From contig DATIIV010000033.1 of assembly GCA_035479295.1 (NCBI GenBank), forward strand, positions 2,901 to 66,900: a DNA stretch of 64,000 bases. The letters run 5' to 3'. The notes beneath the pieces were generated by a model. It worked only from the letters and a program-made list of their open reading frames with translations, had not been told where the DNA came from and did not search any database. Every line of letters starts with the position of its first letter. The first letter of the stretch is position 1. Below, piece after piece: positions 2,656 through 42,771 of this stretch. The DNA is from Candidatus Saccharimonadia bacterium. GTDB taxonomy: Bacteria > Patescibacteriota > Saccharimonadia > UBA4664. The translations under genes and the position numbers were made by a program.

Positions 2656-3606
2656 TCAAGCCGCAGTTAATGTCGGTCGATCCGGCATGGCCAACGCCTG
2701 CATGAGCGCCCGGGCCAGGCGGTAGCGGCCAGCTTCCTGATGATGCGCGATGAGCCGACCAACCGGTTGACGGTGCTGGGCGTCGTGCAAAAAGAAGGTG
2801 TCGTCGGCATAAGTCTTAAGAAACTGAGCCGGCGCCGCACCGGGCGTGAGCGCCTGAACATGATGGGCCAGGAGCACAAAAGCGTCGTAGCAGTCGCGTT
2901 GAGGCTTGCTGGCATTGCGCAGGGGCCGAGCCAGATCCAGTGCATACTGAAAGGTGCGAGCCAGCTGCAGAAACTCGTCGGTGTCGAGCAGGATGTCGAG
3001 AGCGTTATCGAGTGCATCGGCGTAGCCTGCCGAGGCCGGGGCCAGCTGCTCAATCTTAACCTCGTGCTCCTCGAGAAACAGCTCCACGGCCTGCCACGTA
3101 GCAGCTAGTTTGGTCTCTAGCGCGGCCTTGGCTTTAAGGCCAAAGTCGCCGGTCTGGACCTGGCCCAGATAGTCCACTAGCAGGCTGGCCGGTGGCAGCT
3201 CGTCCAATAATTGAGCCAGATCGGTCACCGACAGCTTGGTGGTGAGGTAGACACTGAGGCAGTTAGCCGGCAGCAGCCGTAGCTGGTTTGGCCGTACAAA
3301 GTAAGCTTGCGCGCCCGGCTCTTCGTGCGGCGGCCCGGTTACAAAGCTCATATGCTGCATGTGAGTAATGGTGTGGGTGTACTTTAAAATATCGTCGGCA
3401 CTTATGGCTGTTAGTCGCCGCCGTTGCAATATTCTGGCTATCTTAAGCCATTGCTTGTGAGCTAGGGCCATCATAGCGGCCGGCTCTTCGCACACGATCA
3501 GCGCGGTGCCTAGGTGCTGTCGGGCGTGTAGGTGGCGCATTACGTCGGCCGCCAGGTTAGTCTGCTCTAAGTGAATCCGTCGGCGAGTCTCTAGATATCG
3601 CGCCAT
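2656..3606 (-). CDS. Hypothetical protein (316 aa)
   Basis: Long ORF with GC3-rich codon usage. No motif recognised. Confidence 0.4.
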   Translation of the reverse strand: MARYLETRRRIHLEQTNLAADVMRHLHARQHLGTALIVCEEPAAMMALAHKQWLKIARILQRRRLTAISADDILKYTHTITHMQHMSFVTGPPHEEPGAQAYFVRPNQLRLLPANCLSVYLTTKLSVTDLAQLLDELPPASLLVDYLGQVQTGDFGLKAKAALETKLAATWQAVELFLEEHEVKIEQLAPASAGYADALDNALDILLDTDEFLQLARTFQYALDLARPLRNASKPQRDCYDAFVLLAHHVQALTPGAAPAQFLKTYADDTFFLHDAQHRQPVGRLIAHHQEAGRYRLARALMQALAMPDRPTLTAA

Positions 3607-3636
3607 TGTGCTGTGCCTCCAACCATTTGTTCTTTT

Positions 3637-4305
3637 TTATAGTAAATGGTGCTGTCGAAAACTAAAATAGTCTGTTTTGCTAATAATCAGATGATCGCGC
3701 AGAGCCACCCCCAGGAGCTGCCCGGCCGCCGCCAGTTGTTGCGTAAGTGTGATGTCTTGCGCGCTGGGGTTAAGGTCGCCCGACGGATGATTGTGGGCCA
3801 CAATCACGCTGGCGGCGCGGTCTACAATGGCGTCGGCGAAGACCTCGCGCGGATGAGCCAGCACCGTGTCGAGCGTGCCGATGGTAACGATGCGCTGAGC
3901 GATCAGCCGCTGGCCGCCGTCGAGCGATAGCGCCACCACGTACTCTTGCTGCTTGGTGCGAATATCGTCGAGCCGAGCCACGATGTCGCTCATGGTGCGC
4001 AGCGGCTCGATGTCTTTGATGAGGTGGCGCTTGGCTAGCTCCATGGCGGCCAGCAGCTTGCCGGCGTGGGCCGTGCTGACGCCATGAAGGTTAGTAAGAG
4101 CCTCGTAGCTGAGGCCCGAGGCGCCTTTTTGCAGGAGCTTCTGCACCTGTCGGGCGATCTGGCCGACGTCGGCGCCGGCCGTACCGTTACCAATGAGTAC
4201 CTCGAGCAGCTCGAAGTCGGACAGGGCGGCCGCGCCCTTGCGCCGCAGCTTTTCGCGCGGACGGTCGAGGGCGGGTAATTCGTGGATGCGGCGGCGTTTT
4301 GGCAT
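3637..4305 (-). CDS. radC: RadC-like JAMM family protein (UPF0758)
   Basis: N-terminal LPALDRPREKL... HhH region and C-terminal JAMM motif HNHPSGDLNPSAQD. Confidence 0.8.
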   Translation of the reverse strand: MPKRRRIHELPALDRPREKLRRKGAAALSDFELLEVLIGNGTAGADVGQIARQVQKLLQKGASGLSYEALTNLHGVSTAHAGKLLAAMELAKRHLIKDIEPLRTMSDIVARLDDIRTKQQEYVVALSLDGGQRLIAQRIVTIGTLDTVLAHPREVFADAIVDRAASVIVAHNHPSGDLNPSAQDITLTQQLAAAGQLLGVALRDHLIISKTDYFSFRQHHLL

Positions 4306-4519: not shown

Positions 4520-4966
4520 ATGGTGGGCACTATGTTCAAACATCTCCGCAGCAAGCAAGGTTTTACGCTCCTCGAGCTCTTGATCGTCATCGTCATCATT
4601 GGTATCTTGGCGTTGTTGATCATTCCTAATATCACCTCGGCGCCCAAGAAGGCGCGCGACACCCAGCGCAAGACCGACCTTAAGGCCATTCAAAAGGGCC
4701 TCGAGGAGTACTTTGTGTCGAATAACGTCTACCCCAACGCTCTCAGTGATCTCACGGCCAGCAACCCGCCGATCCTGAAGACGGTGCCGACCGACCCCAA
4801 GAATAGCGGCGAGTACGTTTACACCTACACTCCAGCTAACACCAACAGCACCTACACGCTGCACGGTTGTTTGGAGAATGGCGGTGATTCGGGCACCGGT
4901 GTGGTGAGCGGCGACTCGGCCTGCACCAGCACTAGCAAGGGCTTCCAGCTGGTTAACAACAACTAG
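4520..4966 (+). CDS. Type IV pilin / pseudopilin with prepilin-type N-terminal cleavage/methylation domain
   Basis: MFKHLRSKQG|FTLLELLIVIVIIGILA is a classic class III signal. Start is ATG at 4520 or 4532. Confidence 0.75.
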   Translation: MVGTMFKHLRSKQGFTLLELLIVIVIIGILALLIIPNITSAPKKARDTQRKTDLKAIQKGLEEYFVSNNVYPNALSDLTASNPPILKTVPTDPKNSGEYVYTYTPANTNSTYTLHGCLENGGDSGTGVVSGDSACTSTSKGFQLVNNN

Positions 4967-4985
4967 TGGCCAGCGCTCTCCGGCG

Positions 4986-6056
4986 CTACGACGAGCGGCC
5001 CTGGCCTGACGGCTGGGGCCGCTTAAGTTTGCGGGCTACTTGCCGCATATCCTCGTGCTGATCAAACTCGTCGCGAATCTCCCGGTCGATGATCTCCTCG
5101 AGCACATCCTCGATGGTGACGATGCCGAGCACTTCAGAGAACTCATTGATCACGACCGACAGGTGGCTGCGCGACTTGAGAAAGGCGTTGAGGGTGTCGT
5201 CGAGGTGGTCGTTCTCGTTAACGAAGCGGACGCTGGGCCGGGCGATCTCGGCCACGGTTTTGGCGCCCAGCTTAAGGCCGATGAGGTCCTTGGCGTAGAG
5301 GATGCCGATGATGTTATCTTGGCTGGCCCGATATGCCGGCAGCCGCGAGAAGCCGGCCTGTTTGAGCTCCTTGATGAATTTGGCGTCGATGAGCGCCTCG
5401 GCCGGGAGCATGCGGGCGACGCTTCGTGGCGTCATCACCTCGCGAATGAGCCGGTCGCCAAAGTTGAGCGCCCCGGTGGCGATACGCACCTCGTCTTGGT
5501 CGAGGCCGCTCTCATGGTGGTCGCGGTGCTCCTCGATGATGCGCGCCAGCTCGGGCTTGGAGTAGACGGTGGGCAGCTCGTCGCCCAGGATTCGGTCGAG
5601 CGCCCAGGCAATCGGCGCACAGACGGGGTAGAGCACGATCATGAGTAGGCGCACCAGGCCGGTAAACTGCGCGCCGATGCGCAGAGCGTAGCGAGCCACG
5701 ATGGCCTGCGGCACAATCTCGCCAAAAACCGTGATGAGCACGGTGGTGAGCAGGCCGGCCACCACGCCGTGGTAGACCGAATCAAGCACGATCGACAGTG
5801 CCGAGATGGCCGCCACGTTGCCCGTTAGGAGCGTTACGAGCAGCAGATTGCCACGCACCCGCACGCGGTAAACCTTGCGAGCGTCCTTGTCGCCCAGTTC
5901 GGCTTTGCGCCTAAGCTCGAAGGTATCGAGGCTCATCAGACCCAGATTGAGGCCGGAGAAAATTGCCGCGAGCACTACCAGTGTCGCTGCGATCACAATT
6001 AACATAGTGAGTATTGTAGGCCAGGCGTGGCGGCTATACAAATGAGCATTATCCAA
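4986..6056 (-). CDS. HlyC/CorC (CNNM) family transporter: DUF21 membrane domain, CBS pair, CorC_HlyC C-terminus
   Basis: TM-rich N-terminus, CBS-like ...IARMLPAEALIDAKF..., and a C-terminal transporter-associated domain. The start is a TTG at 6056 or an internal ATG at 6005, and neither has a clear SD. Confidence 0.75.
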   Translation of the reverse strand: MDNAHLYSRHAWPTILTMLIVIAATLVVLAAIFSGLNLGLMSLDTFELRRKAELGDKDARKVYRVRVRGNLLLVTLLTGNVAAISALSIVLDSVYHGVVAGLLTTVLITVFGEIVPQAIVARYALRIGAQFTGLVRLLMIVLYPVCAPIAWALDRILGDELPTVYSKPELARIIEEHRDHHESGLDQDEVRIATGALNFGDRLIREVMTPRSVARMLPAEALIDAKFIKELKQAGFSRLPAYRASQDNIIGILYAKDLIGLKLGAKTVAEIARPSVRFVNENDHLDDTLNAFLKSRSHLSVVINEFSEVLGIVTIEDVLEEIIDREIRDEFDQHEDMRQVARKLKRPQPSGQGRSS

Positions 6057-17443: not shown

Positions 17444-17518
17444 TGGCTCCGGAGGTCGGGCTCGAACCGACGACCCAACGGTTAACAGCCGTTTGCTCTA
17501 CCACTGAGCTACTCCGGA
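17444..17518 (-). tRNA. tRNA-Asn (anticodon GTT)
   Basis: Reverse complement folds as a cloverleaf: acceptor TCCGGAG / CTCCGGA, D-arm TAGCTCAGTGGTAGAGCA, anticodon loop CTGTTAA, T-arm GTCGGTTCGAGCCCGAC, discriminator G, encoded CCA. Confidence 0.85.
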
Positions 17519-18872: not shown

Positions 18873-19133
18873 GTGGCCAAGAAACTGTTCGTCGGCAACC
18901 TGCCGTATACACTAACCAATGAGGAACTCGCCGAGTTCTTCGCTAAGTTCGGTGAGGTCGAGGAGGCTACGGTCATCATGGACCGTGCCACCGGCCGCTC
19001 CAAGGGCTTTGGTTTCGTCTCGATGCCTGACGACAACGCCGCCGACACCGCTATCGCCCAGGGCGACGGTGCCGACCTCGACGGTCGCAAGCTGACCGTC
19101 AGCGAGGCCCGTCCCAAGGCCGACGCTCGCTAG
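18873..19133 (+). CDS. RNA-binding protein with RRM domain
   Basis: RNP2 KLFVGNL and RNP1 KGFGFVSM motifs. GTG start. Confidence 0.8.
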   Translation: MAKKLFVGNLPYTLTNEELAEFFAKFGEVEEATVIMDRATGRSKGFGFVSMPDDNAADTAIAQGDGADLDGRKLTVSEARPKADAR

Positions 19134-19150
19134 GTTAACGCCTCAGCACT

Positions 19151-19176
19151 AAAAAAGACCCGCCAGGGTCTTTTTT
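19151..19176. terminator. Bidirectional rho-independent terminator
   Basis: AAAAAA-AGACCC-gcca-GGGTCT-TTTTTT between convergent genes. Confidence 0.6.
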
Positions 19177-19195
19177 AGTTGGGCCGGCTGGTATT

Positions 19196-20998
19196 TTAAG
19201 CAGCTTGATTGAGATGCGGTCGAGTCCGATCAAGGACGGCCATAACCCGGCGCCGAGTCTGCAGCACGATATCCTGAGCGGCCTGCTGAAACTGGCGGCC
19301 GCGATCTTCGCCTTGCTCGGCCGAGCGCAGAAGGTCGGCCAGGGTTAGGAAGTCGGGGCTTAGTGCGAGACCCTTGCCTGCCGAAAACCGGGCGGCCCAC
19401 GGGTCGTCGGAGGGGCGAGTCATTTGGTGGCTGGCAAATAAATCGTTCATTTGGGCGGAATATTGCTGCCAGGCGGCCGCTAGCTCGGTCTTTGACGGGT
19501 CCGCCGCCTCTTTGGGATGCTCCAAGAGCTGAGTGTGTGCTTTAAGGGCGCTAAAGAGAGCACTGGCGCTGCGCATCGTACGGTTAAGCCCTGATAGGCC
19601 TTTAGCCTCCAGCGTTCGTAACTCCACCGCGGTGGAAGCATCTCCCTGGATGTCTTCACTGCTTCGTTCCATAATGCCGCCGTTACCCTTGCAGGCCCAG
19701 CCGCCCTCAGGAGCGGTTGATGCTTGTTCCAGCCGTTCGGCACTACAGCTCCAACCGGTAGCCTCCAGCCCGTGCAATAAGGTATACACCTCATTGCCGG
19801 CCGGGCCGTTAGTACTGACTTCGGCGCCCGTAAGATGCAGCGGATACGAATACTCATTGCGGAGAAGGTCGGCCTGCATCAGGGCCTGGACTTCGCGCGT
19901 GTGGGTGAGGTAGCTGTAAGCCGGGCGAGGGGCGAATTCCCACATGGCGTCGCTACCCGCTGGTATACCCAGTTGCTCGCTGTGGCGATAATTGGCTTGT
20001 CGCTGGTAGGCTCGAGCCTCTCGCTCCTCACTAGAAAGGTTCAAGTTGTCATCAACTAATAATGACTCTTCTTCGATCTCTACTTCTATGCCTAGCGTGG
20101 TGCTATAAGGCGAGGGATTGTCCTCTTGATAGGCGGCAATAATTAGTCGCTCTTTAAACTGCTCAGGAGTGTGCGACGATAAGGGGCGCTCCATCAGAAC
20201 CCAGAGATTCTGGAGCGTCTCCGAACGCTTACCGGAGCCCTGGGAACTAACCATAAGATCAGGTTTTCGGCGAAGGCTCTGCCCAAAGTCTGGGTCGTTC
20301 ACGCTGTCATTAAAGAATTCTTGGGCATAGGCCAGAGCCAGGACTTCGGGACGAGATATCGTCCGGAAGTAGTTGAGAGCTTCTGCCCGCTGGCCGCGGT
20401 GACGAACGCCTTTAACATACTCATCGAGCCAGCCCTCTACGTGCTGCTGCCATTGTTCCCGGCTCGCCTCCGAGGTGGCTCGGTGCTCAATGGCCGAGGC
20501 TACGAACAGCGCATCGTTCATCTTGTAACTGCGGTACTCTGGGTCTGGTTCGGTGGCGATAGCATGGGACGCATAGGCAGCGAGGTGGGGTAGTAGCTGG
20601 TCGTCACCCAATCGAGCTAGGGCGACACGCAATGGTTGTTCCATTTTGCCCTGTTGAACAACATAATCAGCAATCTCGGGCACATTTTCCCTCGTAGCAG
20701 CGGCGTTTACCAGACTGGCACTAAGCTCCGGTATAAGCCTGCCTTGGCTAAGTTCTTGGAGTACGGCATGGGCGGCTGGAGCTCCTTCTTGTCGAAACTG
20801 GCGTAGTAAGGCTACGGCACGTGTCTTCTCGGCGTCACTGGGCTTCAGCTTTAATTGGATAGCTGCAAACTCGTGAGTCAGGGCCGTCAGATCCTCCTGG
20901 TTCGTCTCACTGGTGTTGGCTGTGAGGTCGCGGTAGGCGTCGGCGCCCTGAAAGTCCGGCTTGTCACCATGATGGGGCGAGTGGTGCTCGTAGTTCAT
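19196..20998 (-). CDS. Large hypothetical protein (600 aa)
   Basis: Long GC3-rich ORF with no recognised domain. Confidence 0.45.
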   Translation of the reverse strand: MNYEHHSPHHGDKPDFQGADAYRDLTANTSETNQEDLTALTHEFAAIQLKLKPSDAEKTRAVALLRQFRQEGAPAAHAVLQELSQGRLIPELSASLVNAAATRENVPEIADYVVQQGKMEQPLRVALARLGDDQLLPHLAAYASHAIATEPDPEYRSYKMNDALFVASAIEHRATSEASREQWQQHVEGWLDEYVKGVRHRGQRAEALNYFRTISRPEVLALAYAQEFFNDSVNDPDFGQSLRRKPDLMVSSQGSGKRSETLQNLWVLMERPLSSHTPEQFKERLIIAAYQEDNPSPYSTTLGIEVEIEEESLLVDDNLNLSSEEREARAYQRQANYRHSEQLGIPAGSDAMWEFAPRPAYSYLTHTREVQALMQADLLRNEYSYPLHLTGAEVSTNGPAGNEVYTLLHGLEATGWSCSAERLEQASTAPEGGWACKGNGGIMERSSEDIQGDASTAVELRTLEAKGLSGLNRTMRSASALFSALKAHTQLLEHPKEAADPSKTELAAAWQQYSAQMNDLFASHQMTRPSDDPWAARFSAGKGLALSPDFLTLADLLRSAEQGEDRGRQFQQAAQDIVLQTRRRVMAVLDRTRPHLNQAA

Positions 20999-34960: not shown

Positions 34961-36106
34961 TCAGCTAGCAATAATCTCTTCGTCGACAAGCTGGACGAGC
35001 GGGCTCGATGGGTTCTCGCCCCGCAGAGCCAGCCCCTGGTGAAATAGAGCTAGCCGAACTGCATCAAGGTACACGGGACCAAAGCTGGGCCAGGCCTTCA
35101 ACCAGTCGGCCGTCACATCGCGCAGATCCTGCGCCGAGGCGATGTTCATTTTGGCCAACAGCGGTAGAAGCTGATGTTTCAGGTAGCCTCCCAGGGGCGT
35201 CAGCAAATCCTCGATCGGTATATCTCGAGGCGTCGCCAGATACATACTAGCAACTGCCAGTCGGCCTCGTTCCAGCAGGCTTTTGACCGCCCGAGGCGTC
35301 AGACTGGTGGCCTGCGCAATCTCGCCGAGTGGCTGATGGCTCAGCCCGTCAAGGCCGTAGTACAGCTTAAGGACGCGCTGAACCGTCTCGTCCAGCCTGT
35401 TGACCAGACTCAGCCTGGTCTGCCACCAGGCTGGGCTGTAGCAGTTTGGCAGCTCGGGGTTTCGGGCCAGCGTGACCTTTTGTGGCCGCCACACCTCTTC
35501 TCCGGCCAGGGCCAGACCATGATAGCTCAGGCTCACTCGAACGAGGTCGACAAACGCCTTGCTAAAGCCGGGCCAGACGAGAAGCCAGTCTTTGGCGGTG
35601 CCCGTGAGGTCACGAAGGGTATGAATGCCCATGTCGTGAAGCAAGTCCAGAATCCTAGCAGCCTCAAGCTGCCGGTGGGTAGCAAATTTTAGCTCCCGAA
35701 TCGATCGGCAGGCCGACAGCTCATCGGTTGGCCTTGCCTTATCCTGAGCTTGAGCGGCTACATATGCTCGCTGAATCCGCTTTTCGATGGTCCTGCGGCT
35801 TAGCCCAACTTGCCTTTCTAGCTGAAGATAGGTAAGAGCGGGCCCGTCCAGGCCATAATAGCGGCGGATGAGGCTTTGCACCTGGGGGTGAAGTCGCTCG
35901 AGAAGCTCCTGATGTGCCTCCCACCAGCGACCAGTAATCTGCTTGATCTGGGTAGGAGACAGCGTAGGCACAGCACCTGGTCCCTTCGCACATAGAGGCG
36001 TCCCGGACTGGACGCCAGGACGACTATACAATAAATTCCATAGAAAAGTGAAGCAGCATCTCGCCAGGGGCTTATCTATTGCCTGTCCTTGACTCTTCCG
36101 CAGCAA
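34961..36106 (-). CDS. Protein with tandemly duplicated module: sigma-70 region-4-like HTH plus RNAP alpha-subunit C-terminal-domain-like HhH (putative transcription regulator)
   Basis: Module 1 is VQSLIRRYYGLDG...LSRRTIEKRIQRA followed by GIHTLRDL...DWLLVWPGFSKAFVDLVRVSLSYHGLAL. Module 2 is VQRVLKLYYGLDG...LTPRAVKSLLERGR followed by NIASAQDL...DWLKAWPSFGPVYLDAVRLALFHQGLAL. Confidence 0.55.
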   Translation of the reverse strand: MLRKSQGQAIDKPLARCCFTFLWNLLYSRPGVQSGTPLCAKGPGAVPTLSPTQIKQITGRWWEAHQELLERLHPQVQSLIRRYYGLDGPALTYLQLERQVGLSRRTIEKRIQRAYVAAQAQDKARPTDELSACRSIRELKFATHRQLEAARILDLLHDMGIHTLRDLTGTAKDWLLVWPGFSKAFVDLVRVSLSYHGLALAGEEVWRPQKVTLARNPELPNCYSPAWWQTRLSLVNRLDETVQRVLKLYYGLDGLSHQPLGEIAQATSLTPRAVKSLLERGRLAVASMYLATPRDIPIEDLLTPLGGYLKHQLLPLLAKMNIASAQDLRDVTADWLKAWPSFGPVYLDAVRLALFHQGLALRGENPSSPLVQLVDEEIIAS

Positions 36107-36183
36107 TCAGCATATTAAATAAGCCCTCGGATGAGCGCGCTCGAGGCGCCCAGTTTAATCGGAACCAGCAAGGAGCCCCATTT

Positions 36184-36381
36184 ATGGCGGAGATTCCTGA
36201 CGAAGAGACCAGCCCGCGACCTAACCGGTTGACGTTCGAACAACAGCAAGCACGGCAGGCCGCTGCCCCGGTCGATGCCGGTGGGAATCCGCGGCTTCCA
36301 CGCTGCAAGAACTGCGTATGCGGCGGCTGTACCCTCGGCATAGGCTGTGAGGGTTGCACGACCTGTAATCCACCGAGCTAG
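36184..36381 (+). CDS. Leader plus Cys-rich-core small peptide (65 aa), candidate RiPP precursor or metal-binding peptide
   Basis: An AAGGAG SD lies 8 nt upstream of the ATG. MAEIPDEETSPRPNRLTFEQQQARQAAAPVDAGGNPRLPR-CKNCVCGGCTLGIGCEGCTTCNPPS has 7 Cys in the last 25 residues. A terminator follows. Confidence 0.5.
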   Translation: MAEIPDEETSPRPNRLTFEQQQARQAAAPVDAGGNPRLPRCKNCVCGGCTLGIGCEGCTTCNPPS

Positions 36382-36457
36382 TCTGCCGCAGCACACACTG
36401 TCGTAATGATCGCTCGGCGCCGGGTGGCGTCGATTACTAGTTGCGATAGGCTCAGTC

Positions 36458-36492
36458 GGGATTGGGCAAGACCTCGCCCAATCCCGGCTTTT
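36458..36492 (+). terminator. Rho-independent terminator after the Cys-rich peptide gene
   Basis: GGGATTGGGC-aagacctc-GCCCAATCCC followed by GGCTTTTGTT. Confidence 0.5.
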
Positions 36493-36505
36493 GTTGGAGG
36501 CGACT

Positions 36506-36670
36506 CTAGGATAGCCCTAGCTCGCGCCAAAGCGCTTCATCGTGCCTTTTCAGGTCATTTTTCGCGTTACGGAGACGGATTTCCAGCCTGTAACGATCTC
36601 CTGGCCCGAGACCAGCCTCTTGTAGTTTCTCGGTAGCCGCCTCAATCACACCCACGAGGTGCGTGGCCAT
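36506..36670 (-). CDS. Small helical hypothetical protein (54 aa)
   Basis: An AGGAAG SD lies 6 nt upstream of the ATG. MATHLVGVIEAATEKLQEAGL... Convergent with the peptide gene. Confidence 0.3.
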   Translation of the reverse strand: MATHLVGVIEAATEKLQEAGLGPGDRYRLEIRLRNAKNDLKRHDEALWRELGLS

Positions 36671-36734
36671 CGGGTCTTCCTGATGCGACTCGCCGCTAGC
36701 GTCTGACACGACCCATTCCTTTGCTCCGCGATTT

Positions 36735-36758
36735 CTGTCCTGCGGGCATGCAGGACAG
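36735..36758. other. Perfect 9-bp-arm palindrome
   Basis: CTGTCCTGC-gggcat-GCAGGACAG. On the minus strand it lies just downstream of the tRNA-Ile 3' end. Confidence 0.3.
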
Positions 36759-36823
36759 AAGGGCAGAGTAAAAGCTTGGCTGCTTACCATCGGCCGCCTG
36801 GGCAATAGTTAAGAATAATTCCT

Positions 36824-36899
36824 TGGTAGGCCCGGCTGGATTCGAACCAGCGACCAGTACCTTATAAGAGTACCGCTCTAACCGCTGAGCTACGGGCCC
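36824..36899 (-). tRNA. tRNA-Ile with anticodon TAT (UAU)
   Basis: Reverse complement is GGGCCCGTAGCTCAGCGGTTAGAGCGGTACTCTTATAAGGTACTGGTCGCTGGTTCGAATCCAGCCGGGCCTACCA. It folds as a cloverleaf with anticodon loop CTTATAA, U33, A37 and discriminator A73. Confidence 0.7.
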
Positions 36900-36927
36900 G
36901 GATTGAATCAGTATATAATACTTTTGT

Positions 36928-37335
36928 ATGAAGATGGCCAACCTCGGGCGCAAGCTCCTCAAGTTTCGGTTTAATCTCGTCAACGCACTCAATGTGGCGG
37001 GGGCGGTGGTGATTGTGTATTTGCTGGTGACGCTGATTCAGACGATTAAGCAAAACTACGACCTAAATATGCAGAGTAATCAGCTAAAGTCGGAGATATC
37101 GCTACTGCAAGACCAAAACGACGAGCTAAGCTATAACATTCAGTACTACAAGACCGACTCGTTTAAGCAGCGCGAGGCACGCTCCAAGCTGGGCTTGCAG
37201 CTGCCCGACGAGCACGAAGTGGTGCTGCCCGAGCCAACGGCCACCCCGGCGCCGGCGGCCGACGCCCAGACCAAGTCGACCAAGAAACGCTCAAACGTGC
37301 AGCAATGGCTCGACTTCTTGGCCGGCAATAGCTAA
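36928..37335 (+). CDS. FtsB/DivIC-like septum formation initiator (putative)
   Basis: N-terminal TM then a coiled coil with heptad Leu/Gln (SEISLLQDQNDELSYNIQYYKTDSFKQREARSKLGL). A TATATAAT box ends about 8 nt before the ATG. Confidence 0.5.
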   Translation: MKMANLGRKLLKFRFNLVNALNVAGAVVIVYLLVTLIQTIKQNYDLNMQSNQLKSEISLLQDQNDELSYNIQYYKTDSFKQREARSKLGLQLPDEHEVVLPEPTATPAPAADAQTKSTKKRSNVQQWLDFLAGNS

Positions 37336-40346: not shown

Positions 40347-40421
<75 letters not shown>

Positions 40422-40548: not shown

Positions 40549-41208
40549 TTAGAGTCCATGTCTCCTCATCATTACGGGGATGGTGACAACCATCACCTTG
40601 AGCAGGCCGAGAATGGTGCGGGTGGCGGCAAACTCCTCGTCGAACTGGCGAGCCAGTCGGAGCATCGTCTGATGGTCGCTGGGCGTCTCGATGACCGCCC
40701 GCTCGACCTCCGGTCTGGTCTGGGCGTAGCCGGTGATGCCGGGGCCCTGGCGGAACATGTGGGGATACTGGCTCAGCGCCAGCTCGATGCCGCCAGGTAA
40801 CTCCGTCTCGGGCATCGGCCGATAACCCACCACGTTCATCTGGCCCGCGAGGACGTTGAAGAACTGTGGCAGTTCGTCGAGATGGCTCGGTCTCAGAAAG
40901 CGCCCCAGCCAGGTACGGTTGTCGTCGTTTGAGGTGACGAAGCCGCCGTCGAGGTGCTTGAGCGTCCGGAACTTGATGGGCCGGAAGAGCCGGCCGTCAC
41001 GGCCGACGCGCTCGGGGCGAAAGAATAGCGGCCCAAAGTCGCCGCTGAACCACATGGCCAGCCGCACCAACAGGCAGGCCACCACGGCGACCAGTGCGCC
41101 CATGGCGGCGACGCTGTAGTTGAGCGTCCAGCAGGCCGCGGCGTTGGTCGCGACGCGCCAGGTGTGCGACTCGATCTGAGCAGTGGGCGCGTAGCCAGAG
41201 ACGGACAT
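40549..41208 (-). CDS. Monotopic phosphoglycosyl transferase (bacterial sugar transferase, WbaP/WcaJ C-domain type)
   Basis: ...SGDFGPLFFRPERVGRDGRLFRPIKFRTL...DELPQFFNVLAGQMNVVGYRP signature. Confidence 0.8.
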   Translation of the reverse strand: MSVSGYAPTAQIESHTWRVATNAAACWTLNYSVAAMGALVAVVACLLVRLAMWFSGDFGPLFFRPERVGRDGRLFRPIKFRTLKHLDGGFVTSNDDNRTWLGRFLRPSHLDELPQFFNVLAGQMNVVGYRPMPETELPGGIELALSQYPHMFRQGPGITGYAQTRPEVERAVIETPSDHQTMLRLARQFDEEFAATRTILGLLKVMVVTIPVMMRRHGL

Positions 41209-41339
41209 CGAGGCCTCCCAGTAGGGTAGGAAGATGGGAAAGGACGTTTGTGAATTATAACATATATCACTAATTATGCAATGGTTTTAATATTGACATT
41301 CAACATAGGGCGTGTCAGTATAGGAAATAATCTACTGCT

Positions 41340-41985
41340 CGTGGGTAGGTCTTTGACGGTAAGAGAGTAACTAGCTCCCGGATGCGAGCCGCCGGCCAGA
41401 ATGTGGCGATTGGCACCCGGGAGCTATAGAATCTGAGGAGGCGTCATGAGCAACCGCGACAGCTAGCACTGGCAGCTTCCTCAGGACCGGGATCCTGGTC
41501 CCCCGACGAAGGGAGGAGGGGCAGGTGCCACCACTGCACGACACGTAGGTGCCGCCATGGTTTCCGTAGCGCCCGCGGCAATGGGCGCAATGCAAGTGGT
41601 ACCCCCTGTGCTACCGCAGGGAGCGGTAGCGCAATTTAAGGACGTGGCCGAAGGCCGCCATAGAGCGTTGATCTCTCGAGCCACGCGCACGCTTGCTGGG
41701 CTACCGTTCACGGGTTTGGCCCCCTGAGTTTGAAGGGAAACCAGATGAGGCGAAGACAGGCATCGCTCCGCTAGCAGCGAAGCTTCCGGTGCTGGCACCG
41801 GAGATTTCACTGCTTTGCGACCCGTACTGGCGTTGGGTCGCCGCGTGGCGGAGGGCCTCCCCGGGTCCTCCGCCACACCGCCAACCTCATTCTCGGCTGT
41901 TTTACTGCTATTATTCATGACCAAACGGCCCTTATGGGCTGTTTTTTTAGTGCCCGGCGGCCGGCAATTGTGTATGATAGGATCC
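41340..41985 (+). other. About 650-nt GC-rich non-coding region with multiple stable hairpins, candidate structured RNA or long leader
   Basis: No ORF has plausible composition. Hairpins include AGCTCCCGG...CCGGGAGCT (41373-41425), the near-palindrome GGACCGGGATCCTGGTCC, GCTACCGC-aggga-GCGGTAGC, and a terminal GGCCC..GGGCTGTTTTTTT. Confidence 0.3.
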
Positions 41986-42771
41986 ATGGAAACCGACGCT
42001 CCAGTTACCAAGGCCCGCGCCGACCGTGCCACCGTGGTGCTGCGCTGGGCGGTGGGCGTGGTGCTGGCGGCCGTGGTGGTGCTGGCCGGGTTGGCGGCTG
42101 TTGCTTACGCACAGACTCCCGAGGGCATTCGCCATCCCGCCGGTACGCACTATCACTTCCGATTGCAGCTTATCGTGGGCGGCCAGGCGGTCAATTTTGG
42201 CTCGGCCGCGTACCAAACGCCGCTCAATCACGACATCTGCACCGCCAAGCTCACTAATGAGCCGATCCATTTTCACGATAATCTCGACCAGTTTGCTCAT
42301 ATTCATTGGGCACATATTACCGGCGGCCTTTTTCTCAAGAATTACGGTTGGAATCTGGTGGGCGGGCTGTCCGGTGTGCTTGGCTATCGATTCGACCAGT
42401 TGCCCAAGGTGACTGCTGTGCCAATTCACGGCCACGTCCTGCCCGCGCCGCCGGCCGGGGCTCATTACTATATTTACACCGGCGATCAAACCAGCTATCA
42501 GCAGCGCAATTGGAACGATTTCTTGCATCAAGACATTAACGTGTTCTTTGGCCACCCCACCATCTCGGCGGCTCAACCAACCAGCCAGAGCTGGTGGTTA
42601 TGGCTGGTGCCAACCGCCTCCGCTCACGGCGACGAGACTGAGCTGACCGAGCTCAATCATGTCGTGGGCAGCGCGGTTATTTTTGTTCAGCCAGAGGCGC
42701 CGACCGCCGCCCAGATCAAAGACCGCTTTAACCACCTGATACCGCTGCCCACGAGTACTTGTGGTGGCTAA
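41986..42771 (+). CDS. Hypothetical N-terminally anchored His-rich protein
   Basis: TM anchor then a domain rich in His clusters (HYHF, HFHDN, HIHWAHI, HGH). Alternative ATG at 41974. Confidence 0.4.
   Translation: METDAPVTKARADRATVVLRWAVGVVLAAVVVLAGLAAVAYAQTPEGIRHPAGTHYHFRLQLIVGGQAVNFGSAAYQTPLNHDICTAKLTNEPIHFHDNLDQFAHIHWAHITGGLFLKNYGWNLVGGLSGVLGYRFDQLPKVTAVPIHGHVLPAPPAGAHYYIYTGDQTSYQQRNWNDFLHQDINVFFGHPTISAAQPTSQSWWLWLVPTASAHGDETELTELNHVVGSAVIFVQPEAPTAAQIKDRFNHLIPLPTSTCGG

What the first reader, a model, noticed from the sequence alone, without database searches (positions are those of the whole stretch)
41340..41985. About 650-bp GC-rich, hairpin-dense non-coding stretch upstream of a His-rich membrane protein
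This is the longest region of the window without a credible ORF. The overlapping ORFs (41371-41595, 41481-42032, 41693-41920) are low-complexity and Arg/Pro/Ser-rich. The region contains several long-range and local helices, including AGCTCCCGG...CCGGGAGCT, GGACCGGGATCCTGGTCC, GCTACCGC-aggga-GCGGTAGC and GCGCCC...GGGCGC. It ends in a hairpin followed by a T7 run just before the downstream gene. Its size is compatible with RNase P RNA or tmRNA, with a large riboswitch or leader controlling the His-rich (metal-related?) protein, or with an unclassified ncRNA. I could not match diagnostic motifs (P4 helix, tmRNA tag, B12 box) by eye.
Basis: seen in the sequence. Interest (0 to 1): 0.6.

Follow-up and report, generated by a model that had tools for sequence, protein, structure and literature searches.

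The report
New structured RNA gene in Saccharibacteria
The 0.6-kb stretch is a real, heavily folded non-coding RNA gene with its own promoter and terminator. It belongs to a small RNA family of soil Saccharibacteria that matches nothing in Rfam release 15, and its job is still unknown.

Summary
Window 41326-41950 (+) has no conserved reading frame. As a 626-nt unit it has the largest excess folding energy of 51 windows sampled across the 64 kb. It lies between a sigma-70-like promoter and a hairpin followed by seven T.

It is not RNase P RNA, tmRNA or any Rfam 15 family (cmscan and ARAGORN both null).

Homologues of 350-830 nt occur in six other Saccharimonadia contigs. All sit just upstream of the same operon (DUF4396 / His-rich protein / tilS / ftsH), and one contig has two copies. 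Shared features:
- a near-consensus promoter;
- a ~21-bp hairpin with 11 compensatory pairs;
- a variable centre;
- a GC-rich 3' hairpin with a C-rich tail;
- an AUUAUY trailer before the terminator, the same motif that follows the CCA end of most tRNA genes in these genomes.

Models built without the window place their best window hits exactly here (E about 6e-4 and 4e-3).

The downstream gene carries its own -10 box 6-8 nt before the ATG, also in relatives that lack the RNA. I therefore read this as a stand-alone stable RNA rather than a riboswitch.

The window copy is a divergent member: weaker -10, no CCCACC loop, unproven closing helix. Function is inferred only.

The parts
41293..41321 (+). 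Promoter: -35 TTGACA (41293-41298), 17-nt spacer, -10 CAGTAT (41316-41321). An A/T-rich stretch lies upstream.
   Evidence: Read. It is in the same register as the TTGACA-N17/18-TATAAT promoters of all six homologues. The window's -10 matches only 3 of 6 consensus positions, so the generic scan did not list it. The distance from the -10 to the P2 hairpin is 50 nt, against 46-55 nt in L090, L094, L003b and L093 (read).
41326..41950 (+). Predicted primary transcript of the non-coding RNA, about 620 nt. It would be about 580 nt if it is cut at the AUUAUU trailer.
   Evidence: MFE -292.5 kcal/mol, z -5.9. Rank 1 of 51 sampled 626-nt windows. No Rfam family. No coding homology.
41330..41346 (+). 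Small hairpin at the 5' end (AUCUAC/GUGGGU).
   Evidence: 6 bp, P 0.63. An equivalent small 5' hairpin is predicted in L090 and L093 and readable in L094 and L003b.
41357..41367 (+). 5' strand of the possible closing helix P1 (CGGUAAGAGAG). This corresponds to AAGCAAGAGAG in L090 and L094.
   Evidence: The MFE pairs it with 41897-41907 (P 0.69). Duplex energy against shuffles is p<0.002 in L090, 0.002 in L094 and 0.04 in L003b, but only 0.20 in the window. It is plausible here, not shown.
41372..41426 (+). P2, the family's signature hairpin: about 20 bp, UAGCUCCCGGAUGCGAGCCGCCG / UGGCGAUUGGCACCCGGGAGCUA.
   Evidence: Pair probability 0.96. In a 7-sequence alignment of 21 pairs, 88% of cells pair and 11 pairs have changes on both sides; 0 of 500 shuffles reach this, and slid controls give at most 46% paired. 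Model R2, built without the window, has its best hit in the 64 kb at 41371-41429 (20.7 bits, E 6.4e-4). The window's apical loop (GGCCAGAAUGU) lacks the CCCACC/CCCGCC hexaloop of the relatives.
41434..41501 (+). Two hairpins, 41434-41483 (16 bp) and 41484-41501 (7 bp). The first buries a GAGGAGG-N4-AUG mini-ORF of 6 codons.
   Evidence: P 0.91 and 0.86. Mini-ORFs at this position differ in length (6, 31 and 71 codons) or are absent in the relatives, so they are not conserved.
41518..41769 (+). Variable central domain, closed by 41518-41529 / 41759-41769. Inner hairpins are at 41569-41588, 41607-41633, 41641-41686 and 41698-41722. The CUCGAG palindrome is at 41675-41680.
   Evidence: There is no significant sequence similarity to the centres of other members. 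CUCGAG is present in 5 of 7 members (1 of 2000 shuffles reach this).
41773..41839 (+). Two hairpins, 41773-41814 (17 bp) and 41819-41839 (8 bp).
   Evidence: P 0.96 and 0.92; inverted repeat I3.
41840..41889 (+). GC-rich 3' hairpin (core GUGGCGGAGGGCC / GGGUCCUCCGCCAC) followed by the C-rich tail CACACCGCCAACC.
   Evidence: 17 bp, P 0.85; I2. The counterparts are read from the sequences and seen in the folds: L090 GUGCGGGAGCC.../...GGCUCCCGCAC+CACCC, L094 GUGGUGGGGGCC.../...CCCCCACCAC+ACCG, L003a, L093. The hairpin was not aligned column by column.
41890..41907 (+). 3' strand of the possible P1 (AUUCUC ... UUACUG). This corresponds to CUCUCUUGCUU in L090, L094 and L002.
   Evidence: See the P1 5' strand above.
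41907..41916 (+). Trailer motif GCUAUUAUUC, a putative 3'-processing site.
   Evidence: A profile of the 3' tails of L090, L094, L003a and L002 (window excluded) has its best window hit at 41904-41945, E 0.0044. By the scan's pattern, 14 of 17 distinct tRNA genes in these loci carry A(A/U)UUAU or AAUCAU within 25 nt after CCA; in 13 the motif starts 1-3 nt after CCA, and the 14th (L001 tRNA-Ile) matches further downstream. AATTAT[TC] occurs only 12 times in 128 kb of window sequence.
41923..41948 (+). Intrinsic terminator: AAACGGCCC-UUAU-GGGCUGUUU, then a run of seven U.
   Evidence: 9 pairs, 5 of them GC; P 0.95. Every homologue ends the same way.
41973..42771 (+). Context, not part of the RNA: the -10-like TATGAT (41973-41978), 7 nt, then the ATG at 41986 of the 261-aa His-rich membrane-anchored protein.
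   Evidence: P0001, 100% identical. TAnnAT lies 6-8 nt before the ATG in 9 of the 11 loci in the table; L094 also fits when its true start, read, is used; L090 has a longer leader with a GGGGAG Shine-Dalgarno. AF2 model pLDDT 86.6. No Pfam family and no PDB fold match.

Best explanation
Window 41326-41950 (+) is the gene for a stand-alone, heavily base-paired non-coding RNA. It is a divergent member of a family confined, as far as I could sample, to a subclade of soil Candidatus Saccharimonadia. The family matches nothing in Rfam release 15.

Proposed anatomy and mechanism:
- Transcription starts from a sigma-70 promoter about 50 nt upstream of the signature hairpin P2 and stops at the intrinsic terminator at 41923-41948.
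- The AUUAUY element just before the terminator matches the motif that follows the CCA end of most tRNA genes in these genomes. I infer that the same nuclease removes the terminator hairpin, leaving a stable RNA whose 5' and 3' ends may pair (P1).
- The body is a conserved 5' module (small hairpin, P1 strand, P2), a fast-evolving set of GC-rich hairpins, and a conserved 3' module (GC hairpin, C-rich tail).
- Most likely mode of action, inferred only: a trans-acting RNA whose exposed C-rich, G-poor loops and tail bind a G-rich partner. In the relatives these are the CCCACC hexaloop on P2 and CACACCNCC at the 3' end. The partner could be an RNA, such as purine-rich translation-initiation regions, or a protein.

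I do not think the RNA works by switching termination in front of the His-rich gene.

Step-by-step confidence:
- real conserved structured RNA on the + strand: about 0.85;
- independent transcription unit rather than a leader: about 0.65;
- tRNA-like 3' processing: about 0.4;
- C-rich-loop binding mechanism: about 0.25.
For: Shown:
- Unusual folding at full length.
- No coding signal and no Rfam or ARAGORN match.
- Homologous RNAs in the same genomic place in six other contigs from different assemblies: L003 (two copies), L090/L097, L093, L094, L085/L086, and the 3' end in L002.
- Each full-length homologue has a TTGACA-N17/18-TATAAT promoter, and each, L002 included, ends in an intrinsic terminator.
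- P2 covariation: 11 of 21 pairs have changes on both sides, 88% of cells pair, and 0 of 500 shuffles reach this.
- Two models that exclude the window place their top window hits at the expected 5' and 3' positions (E 6.4e-4, E 0.0044).
- The relatives fold even more strongly: z -5.7, -7.9, -9.7 and -11.1.

Supporting a stand-alone RNA:
- The trailer motif is shared with tRNA genes.
- The downstream gene has its own -10 box 6-8 nt before the ATG, also where the RNA is absent (L001).
- A second copy sits inside the operon in L003, with its own promoter and terminator.

Supporting C-rich exposure:
- Unpaired positions in the six other full-length copies analysed (from five contigs; L086 is identical to L085 and L002 is only a fragment) are 7-12% G and 30-40% C.
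- Their transcribed-strand GC skew is -0.08 to -0.21.
Against: - There are no expression data of any kind.
- The family is small: 7 full copies from 6 contigs. It is patchy. It is absent from this locus in the closest relative L001 (71% identical neighbour protein), and none of the roughly 90 other related loci has a hit.
- Only the 5' module shows significant sequence similarity among members. The centre is not alignable, which fits a loosely constrained RNA better than a ribozyme-like one.
- The window copy is atypical: -10 CAGTAT, a P2 loop without CCCACC, GC skew +0.04, 19% G in unpaired positions, and a P1 no better than shuffles (p 0.20).
- P2 is nearly palindromic, so it scores on both strands (20.7 against 18.2 bits). 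The strand call rests on the promoter and terminator.
- All seven copies point towards, and end 20-50 nt before, a gene of the same operon. That pattern is what a cis-acting leader would show.
- MFE-based G depletion of loops is partly a generic effect.
Confidence: 0.5

Rival explanations
1. It is a cis-acting leader or attenuator of the DUF4396 / His-rich protein / tilS / ftsH operon. The strong promoter would drive the operon, and the RNA would decide, through a metal ion, a protein or a leader peptide, how many polymerases pass the terminator.
For: - All seven copies are co-oriented with a gene of this operon and end 20-50 nt upstream of it. The upstream neighbour differs each time: sugar transferase, tRNAs, NUDIX, DUF6496.
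- The second L003 copy precedes tilS.
- The operon products look metal-related: conserved His and Cys, and the DUF4396 proteins of relatives end in His-rich tails. DUF4396 has been noted beside a metal-resistance cluster (PMC7760498).
- A GGAGG-AUG mini-ORF follows P2 in three members.
Against: - No known aptamer matches.
- The region between the conserved ends varies from about 150 to 600 nt and is not alignable.
- I saw no sequence in the conserved linker that could pair with either terminator arm in L090 or L094 (inspection only).
- The downstream gene keeps a TAnnAT box 6-8 nt before the ATG and has no Shine-Dalgarno, with or without the RNA. Its translation is therefore expected from a leaderless transcript, not from read-through.
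- The mini-ORFs are not conserved.
- The 3' trailer resembles that of tRNA genes.
Confidence: 0.25
2. In this genome the element is a decaying or functionless copy: a hairpin-rich spacer or the remnant of a once-functional, possibly mobile, RNA cassette.
For: - The window copy has a degraded -10 (3 of 6), lacks the family's CCCACC loop, has an interrupted P1 and has the opposite GC skew.
- Model R2 scores it at only 20.7 bits, whereas model R1, which was built from them, scores the other copies at 56-79 bits; the two models are not directly comparable.
- The distribution is patchy, and L003 carries two copies at different intergenic sites.
Against: - The window copy still has the highest excess folding energy of the sampled windows.
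- It keeps an intact strong terminator, an intact 20-bp P2 (P 0.96) and the trailer motif.
- Helices of 16-20 bp would not be expected to persist for long without selection.
- No transposase lies nearby. The ends were not specifically searched for terminal inverted repeats or target duplications.
Confidence: 0.15
3. It is a divergent copy of a known housekeeping or regulatory RNA (RNase P RNA, tmRNA, 6S, SRP RNA, a known riboswitch, OLE/GOLLD/ROOL/HEARO/raiA) that the standard models miss.
For: - The size is compatible.
- The 5' and 3' ends may pair.
- The promoter is strong and the 3' trailer is tRNA-like.
Against: - cmscan against 4227 families finds nothing near a gathering score, even at E<=10, in the window or in L003. 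At gathering thresholds only tRNAs are found across ten relative loci.
- ARAGORN finds no tmRNA.
- No universal core is conserved among members.
- There are two copies in one contig, and the RNA is absent from this locus in most relatives. Neither fits a single-copy essential RNA.
Confidence: 0.03
4. It is an unrecognised or degraded protein-coding gene.
For: ORFs of 56-183 codons overlap the region on both strands. In L001 a 146-codon membrane-protein ORF occupies the equivalent position.
Against: - No Pfam hit and no homologue at E<=10.
- No tblastx match to 84 related loci.
- No remnant of DUF4396.
- The ORFs are not conserved among members.
- P2 shows compensatory changes.
Confidence: 0.02

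Closest known systems
Large bacterial ncRNAs of unknown or recently glimpsed function (OLE, GOLLD, ROOL, raiA; Rfam families)
   Same: - Several hundred nucleotides long and many-helix.
- A stand-alone gene with its own promoter and terminator.
- Narrow and patchy phylogenetic range.
- Lies in a region that also carries tRNA genes. My recollection, not tested here, is that GOLLD and ROOL are often near tRNAs.
   Different: - No sequence or structure match to any of them.
- Their cores are conserved along most of their length. Here only about 110 nt at the 5' end and about 100 nt at the 3' end are conserved, and the centre is free to vary.
- There is no prophage context.
C-rich-loop riboregulators of GC-rich bacteria (6C RNA of Actinobacteria, sX13 of Xanthomonas)
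   Same: - GC-rich stems present C-rich loops (CCCACC/CCCGCC in the relatives).
- Unpaired regions are G-poor.
- sX13 is the nominal best Rfam hit (20.6 bits).
   Different: - Those RNAs are 60-120 nt; this family is 350-830 nt.
- The hit is far below the gathering score of 50 and rests on one GC hairpin plus a terminator.
- The window copy lacks the C-rich P2 loop.
- No targets have been identified.
Stable RNAs matured like tRNA (RNase P RNA, tmRNA, 6S, 4.5S)
   Same: - A strong sigma-70 promoter.
- The 5' and 3' ends pair in some members (P1).
- A trailer element is shared with tRNA genes between the presumed mature end and the terminator.
   Different: - No model matches.
- It is not universal among relatives, and one contig has two copies.
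- The length is highly variable.
Terminator-type riboswitches and leaders
   Same: - It lies directly upstream of, and co-oriented with, an operon.
- A closing helix is followed by an intrinsic terminator.
   Different: - No conserved ligand-pocket-sized core and no recognisable antiterminator.
- The downstream gene has its own leaderless-type promoter.

Membership tests
Bacterial RNase P RNA (Rfam RF00010/RF00011) | Match to the covariance model, including the P4 pseudoknot and conserved regions such as GGAAAGUCC | tested here: not met
   No hit at gathering threshold or at E<=10. The motif is absent on reading the sequence.
Bacterial RNase P RNA (Rfam RF00010/RF00011) | Single-copy gene, universal among relatives | tested here: not met
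   Two copies in L003. Absent from this locus in L001, L089, L091 and about 85 other loci. The rest of those genomes was not searchable.
tmRNA | tRNA-like domain (acceptor stem, T-arm, CCA end) together with a tag reading frame | tested here: not met
   ARAGORN finds only tRNAs. No Rfam tmRNA hit.
Known riboswitch classes (cobalamin, NiCo/czcD, yybP-ykoY, M-box and others in Rfam 15) | Aptamer matches the family model | tested here: not met
   cmscan null in the window and the homologues.
Known riboswitch classes (cobalamin, NiCo/czcD, yybP-ykoY, M-box and others in Rfam 15) | Expression platform with mutually exclusive terminator and antiterminator | tested here: inconclusive
   A terminator is present. 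I saw no antiterminator in the conserved linker of L090 or L094, but this was by eye only. Long-range alternatives were not modelled.
Large ncRNAs OLE / GOLLD / ROOL / HEARO / raiA | Match to the family covariance model | tested here: not met
C-rich-loop sRNAs (sX13 RF02232, 6C RF01066) | Match to the model; two or three short hairpins with CCCC-type loops | tested here: not met
   sX13 scores 20.6 bits against a cut-off of 50; there is no 6C hit. The window's hairpin loops are not C-rich, except CCCC at 41859-41862.
New family proposed here (Saccharimonadia 'P2-hairpin' RNA) | P2: a hairpin of about 21 bp with base UCCCGGAUGYGAGG / CCUCACAUCCGGGA | tested here: met
   Model R2, built from six other copies, has its top hit in 128 kb of window sequence (both strands) at 41371-41429 (20.7 bits, E 6.4e-4, rough calibration).
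New family proposed here (Saccharimonadia 'P2-hairpin' RNA) | Apical hexaloop CCCACC / CCCGCC on P2 | tested here: not met
   The window loop is GGCCAGAAUGU. The six other copies have CCCACC (four), CCCGCC (one) or, in L085, ACCACCC.
New family proposed here (Saccharimonadia 'P2-hairpin' RNA) | Near-consensus sigma-70 promoter upstream of P2: 46-55 nt in the four full-leader relatives, 8-16 nt in L003a and L085 | tested here: met
   TTGACA-17-CAGTAT, 50 nt before P2, in register with the relatives. The -10 is weaker (3 of 6).
New family proposed here (Saccharimonadia 'P2-hairpin' RNA) | Closing helix P1 (AAGCAAGAGAG / CUCUCUUGCUU) | tested here: inconclusive
   Significant in L090 and L094, marginal in L003b, absent in L003a, L093 and L085. 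The window has CGGUAA/UUACUG plus GAGAGU/AUUCUC, no better than shuffles (p 0.20), although the MFE predicts it.
New family proposed here (Saccharimonadia 'P2-hairpin' RNA) | 3' module: GC hairpin, C-rich tail, AUUAUY trailer, intrinsic terminator | tested here: met
   A profile of four other tails has its best window hit at 41904-41945, E 0.0044.
New family proposed here (Saccharimonadia 'P2-hairpin' RNA) | Position immediately upstream of, and co-oriented with, the DUF4396 / His-rich / tilS / ftsH cluster | tested here: met
New family proposed here (Saccharimonadia 'P2-hairpin' RNA) | Actually transcribed as a discrete RNA | not testable with these tools
   No transcriptome data are available here.

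The most novel reading that the evidence does not exclude
This would be a new class of large, modular, stable RNA in Saccharibacteria. It would be matured by the tRNA 3'-processing machinery. Its conserved ends would hold a rapidly evolving bundle of GC hairpins. It would act either as a decoy that titrates a G-rich RNA or a protein through C-rich loops, or as a self-associating scaffold. The CUCGAG palindrome, found in 5 of 7 members and as an apical loop in three, could mediate loop-loop dimerisation. It might be functionally tied to the metal-related DUF4396 / His-rich protein operon beside which it always sits.
Probability: 0.2. Interest if true: 0.75.

Novelty: new variant of a known kind. 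Interest (0 to 1): 0.55.

Why it matters
Bacterial non-coding RNAs longer than about 300 nt are rare. My recollection, not checked here, is that those studied so far (RNase P, tmRNA, OLE, ROOL, GOLLD) have turned out to do unusual biochemistry.

Saccharibacteria are reduced-genome epibionts. My literature searches here found no reports of their non-coding RNAs. A 0.35-0.8 kb RNA kept under a near-consensus promoter in such small genomes is presumably costly, so it is likely to matter.

Two by-products are directly usable:
- a covariance model seed for annotating these genomes;
- the finding that tRNA genes and this RNA share an RNAAUUAUY trailer, which points to a common 3'-maturation signal in this lineage.

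The caveat is that the family is narrow, its centre is unconstrained and its function is unknown. It could prove to be an ordinary lineage-specific sRNA.

Tried and rejected
1. Rfam at permissive E-values in the window and in L003 gave only chance-level hits: sX13, HgcG, PVT1, tfoR, isrG, mir-22.
2. Plain sequence searches (nhmmer and blastn) with the window RNA against relatives found nothing. Homology is visible only through structure, position and short blocks.
3. I searched 5.8 billion proteins with the 183-aa minus-strand ORF, hoping that gene callers had mis-called homologous RNA loci. There were no hits.
4. Pseudogene idea: tblastx against 84 loci and tblastn with DUF4396 proteins gave nothing.
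5. 80 metagenome loci and 15 further loci around orthologues of the His-rich gene had no R1 hits other than the seven copies. L098-L101 have a gene directly upstream and were not scanned with R1.
6. Two scans of viral contigs with family motifs each gave one hit, and both hits lie inside coding sequence, so they are chance.
7. The 16-nt complementarity between the window's P2 top (41383-41398) and 41951-41966 (I4) could have meant a loop-to-promoter-region interaction. I found the analogous complementarity only weakly in L094 and L003a and not in L090, L093 or L085, so I treat it as chance in GC-rich sequence.
8. Mini-ORFs after P2 as leader peptides: lengths of 6, 31 and 71 codons, absent in four members, so rejected.
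9. I looked for other copies in the window among strongly folding stretches. 18.9 kb is an RRM-protein gene, 38.7 kb is a tRNA terminator, and 36.1-36.8 kb holds small ORFs.
10. An AF2 model plus Foldseek against the PDB gave no fold match for the His-rich protein, so it offers no help on a ligand.
11. A shared 7-mer search for conserved central motifs was too noisy to use.
Full report
**What is there**

The window comes from a Candidatus Saccharimonadia (Saccharibacteria, CPR) metagenome-assembled genome. The protein encoded at 41986-42771 is 100% identical to an NCBI entry of that name, and its relatives are all Saccharibacteria.

Between the start of a divergently transcribed sugar-transferase gene (40549-41208, minus strand, PF02397) and that protein lies about 780 nt with no credible gene. 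The longest (183 aa, minus strand) has no Pfam family and no homologue among 5.8 billion proteins, even at E<=10. tblastx of the region against 84 related loci finds nothing.

As a 626-nt unit the + strand folds to -292.5 kcal/mol, z = -5.9. Among 51 equally long windows sampled across the 64 kb it has the largest excess stability. In 300-nt pieces it is unremarkable, so the signal is a sum of many hairpins and long-range pairs. I would shift the boundaries to about 41326-41950.

**What it is not**

- Rfam 15 at gathering thresholds finds only four tRNAs in the window.
- At E<=10 on the region the best hits are sX13 (20.6 bits, cut-off 50) and HgcG (18.6 bits, cut-off 77).
- ARAGORN finds no tmRNA.
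- The homologous regions in other contigs are equally null.

RNase P RNA, tmRNA, known riboswitches and the known large ncRNAs are therefore excluded as far as models can tell.

**Relatives**

I fetched loci around orthologues of the downstream protein from genomes, from metagenomes and by exact-protein look-ups. Most orthologues have a gene, often DUF4396, directly upstream.

Six contigs from different assemblies have, in the same place and orientation, a GC-rich, ORF-free stretch. Each of the five fully assembled ones opens with a TTGACA-N17/18-TATAAT promoter preceded by an A-rich stretch, and all six, including the L002 3'-end fragment, end in an intrinsic terminator:

| Copy | Coordinates | Length |
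|---|---|---|
| L003a | 3444-3940 | 497 nt |
| L003b | 4804-5228 | 425 nt |
| L090 (=L097) | 1636-2462 | 827 nt |
| L094 | 296-808 | 513 nt |
| L093 | 786-1138 | 353 nt |
| L085/L086 | 2616-2966 | 351 nt |
| L002 | 3' end only, next to an assembly artefact | - |

. L003b is a second copy in the same contig, between the His-rich gene and tilS.

These RNAs fold even more strongly than the window copy, with z from -5.7 to -11.1. The closest relative, L001 (71% identical neighbour protein), has a small membrane-protein gene at this position instead.

**Shared anatomy**

1. About 50 nt after the -10 box comes P2, a hairpin of about 21 bp with a conserved base (UCCCGGAUGYGAGG ... CCUCACAUCCGGGA). 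In the relatives its apical hexaloop is CCCACC or CCCGCC.
   - In a 7-sequence alignment 88% of cells pair and 11 of 21 pairs change on both sides. No shuffle out of 500 reaches this, and slid registers give at most 46% paired.
2. In L090 and L094, AAGCAAGAGAG before P2 pairs with CUCUCUUGCUU near the 3' end to form a closing helix, P1 (p<=0.002 against shuffles).
   - P1 is marginal in L003b, absent in the three short members, and only plausible in the window (p 0.20).
3. The centre is a set of GC hairpins that cannot be aligned between members.
   - The only recurrent element I found is the palindrome CUCGAG, present in 5 of 7 members (1 of 2000 shuffles reach this). In three members it forms the apical loop of a short stem.
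4. The 3' module is a GC hairpin of 11-16 bp, then a C-rich tail (CACACCGCC, CACCACCC, CACACCCCC), the P1 strand, the element (G/C)NAUUAUY, and the terminator.
5. Except in the window, the transcribed strand is C-rich (GC skew -0.08 to -0.21). Predicted unpaired positions are 7-12% G and 30-40% C.

**Is the window copy really a member?**

To avoid circularity I built a P2 model from the six other copies. Its best hit in the whole window, on both strands, is 41371-41429 (20.7 bits, E about 6e-4).

A sequence profile of the 3' tails of four other members has its best hit at 41904-41945 (E 0.0044).

Both hits fall exactly where synteny predicts, and the promoter is in register with the relatives, so I accept membership.

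The copy is divergent all the same:
- the -10 is CAGTAT;
- the P2 loop is GGCCAGAAUGU;
- P1 is interrupted;
- the GC skew is +0.04.

P2 is nearly palindromic and scores on both strands. The strand assignment therefore rests on the promoter and terminator.

**Leader or independent gene?**

For a leader:
- All seven copies are co-oriented with, and end 20-50 nt before, a gene of the same conserved cluster (DUF4396 / His-rich protein / tilS / ftsH).
- The upstream neighbour differs in each contig.

Against a leader:
- The His-rich gene has TAnnAT 6-8 nt before its ATG and no Shine-Dalgarno in 9 of the 11 loci tabulated (L094 also fits once its true start, read, is used). This includes loci without the RNA and one with only 30 nt of intergenic space. 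That is the signature of a leaderless transcript from its own promoter.
- I see nothing in the conserved linker that could compete with the terminator.
- The variable centre argues against a ligand pocket.
- The second-best hit of the 3'-tail profile was the trailer of a tRNA gene. That led me to check all tRNA genes in 14 loci. By the scan's pattern, 14 of 17 distinct tRNA genes carry A(A/U)UUAU or AAUCAU within 25 nt after the encoded CCA, and in 13 of them the motif starts 1-3 nt after CCA and is usually followed by a terminator. The heptamer AATTAT[TC] occurs only 12 times in 128 kb of window sequence.
- The RNA family carries the same element in the same position relative to its terminator. 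For example, the L090 RNA has UCA|GCAAUUAUCCC and an L085 tRNA-Met has CCA|GCAAUUAUCCC.

I infer that the RNA is matured at its 3' end like a tRNA, which is the behaviour of a stable RNA rather than an mRNA leader.

**Mechanism**

Shown:
- a conserved, structured, promoter-to-terminator unit;
- P2 covariation;
- the trailer shared with tRNA genes;
- C-rich exposed segments in the relatives.

Inferred:
- It is transcribed strongly.
- It is trimmed at the AUUAU element.
- It acts in trans through its C-rich loops and tail on a G-rich RNA or a protein, by analogy with 6C and sX13-type regulators or with decoy RNAs.

I give the last step only about 0.25. The leader model keeps about 0.25. The possibility that this particular copy is decaying keeps about 0.15.

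**Novelty and value**

Nothing in Rfam 15 corresponds to this RNA, and nothing did in the five literature searches I ran. It is a new family within a known general kind: stand-alone structured bacterial ncRNAs.

It is of moderate interest. It is large, GC-rich and strongly promoted in a reduced genome, and it comes with a testable processing signal. It is also narrow in distribution, loosely constrained in its centre, and without expression data.

Noticed in passing
window 36824-36899 (-); L001 772-847 (-): The window carries a tRNA-Ile with anticodon UAU, and so does its closest relative L001. In both, the His-rich gene is followed directly by ftsH. In L089, L090, L091, L093, L094 and L099 a tilS gene (PF01171) sits between them. 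This may mean the lineage lost tilS and decodes AUA with tRNA-Ile(UAU). tilS could still lie elsewhere in the genome.
   Followed up: partly
tRNA genes in window (17444-17518, 36824-36899, 40347-40421) and in L001, L085, L087, L090, L091: By the scan's pattern, 14 of 17 distinct tRNA genes have A(A/U)UUAU or AAUCAU within 25 nt after the encoded CCA. In 13 of them the motif starts 1-3 nt after CCA and is usually followed by an intrinsic terminator. This looks like a lineage-specific 3'-trailer or processing signal. I recall that RNase E prefers RN|WUU sites, but I did not test this.
   Followed up: partly
window 41675-41680; L090, L003a, L003b, L093: The palindrome CUCGAG occurs in 5 of 7 RNA family members (1 of 2000 mononucleotide shuffles reach this). 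In three members it is predicted as the apical loop CUCGA of a short GC stem. It could be a loop-loop dimerisation site, or a DNA-level site.
   Followed up: partly
window 41973-41988 and the orthologous starts in L001, L003, L085, L087, L089, L091, L093, L094, L095: The His-rich protein gene has a TAnnAT hexamer 6-8 nt before its ATG and no Shine-Dalgarno. This suggests leaderless mRNAs in these Saccharibacteria. The protein itself (conserved HxH, HFHD and HIHW motifs and a C-terminal CGG) gives a confident AF2 model (pLDDT 86.6) with no Pfam family and no PDB fold match.
   Followed up: partly
window 18877-19134 (+): A small RRM-type RNA-binding protein ORF (MAKKLFVGNLPY...KGFGFV...) followed by a terminator. 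The mRNA region folds unusually strongly (z -5.4 for 18901-19200).
   Followed up: no
window 36106-36824: A second ORF-poor, strongly folding stretch downstream of tRNA-Ile on the minus strand (z -6.8 for 36317-36942). It contains only small ORFs and a terminator-like hairpin. It has no hit with the P2 models, so it is not a copy of the RNA.
   Followed up: partly
L002 1-115: Long poly-C and poly-G runs directly upstream of the RNA's 3' end in this MAG contig. This is probably an assembly artefact at the strongly structured, GC-rich RNA gene.
   Followed up: no
L087 1140-1500: Another promoter-less, GC-rich, hairpin-dense stretch ending in a terminator, upstream of a 170-aa gene. It has no Rfam hit at gathering threshold and no P2 hit.
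   Followed up: no
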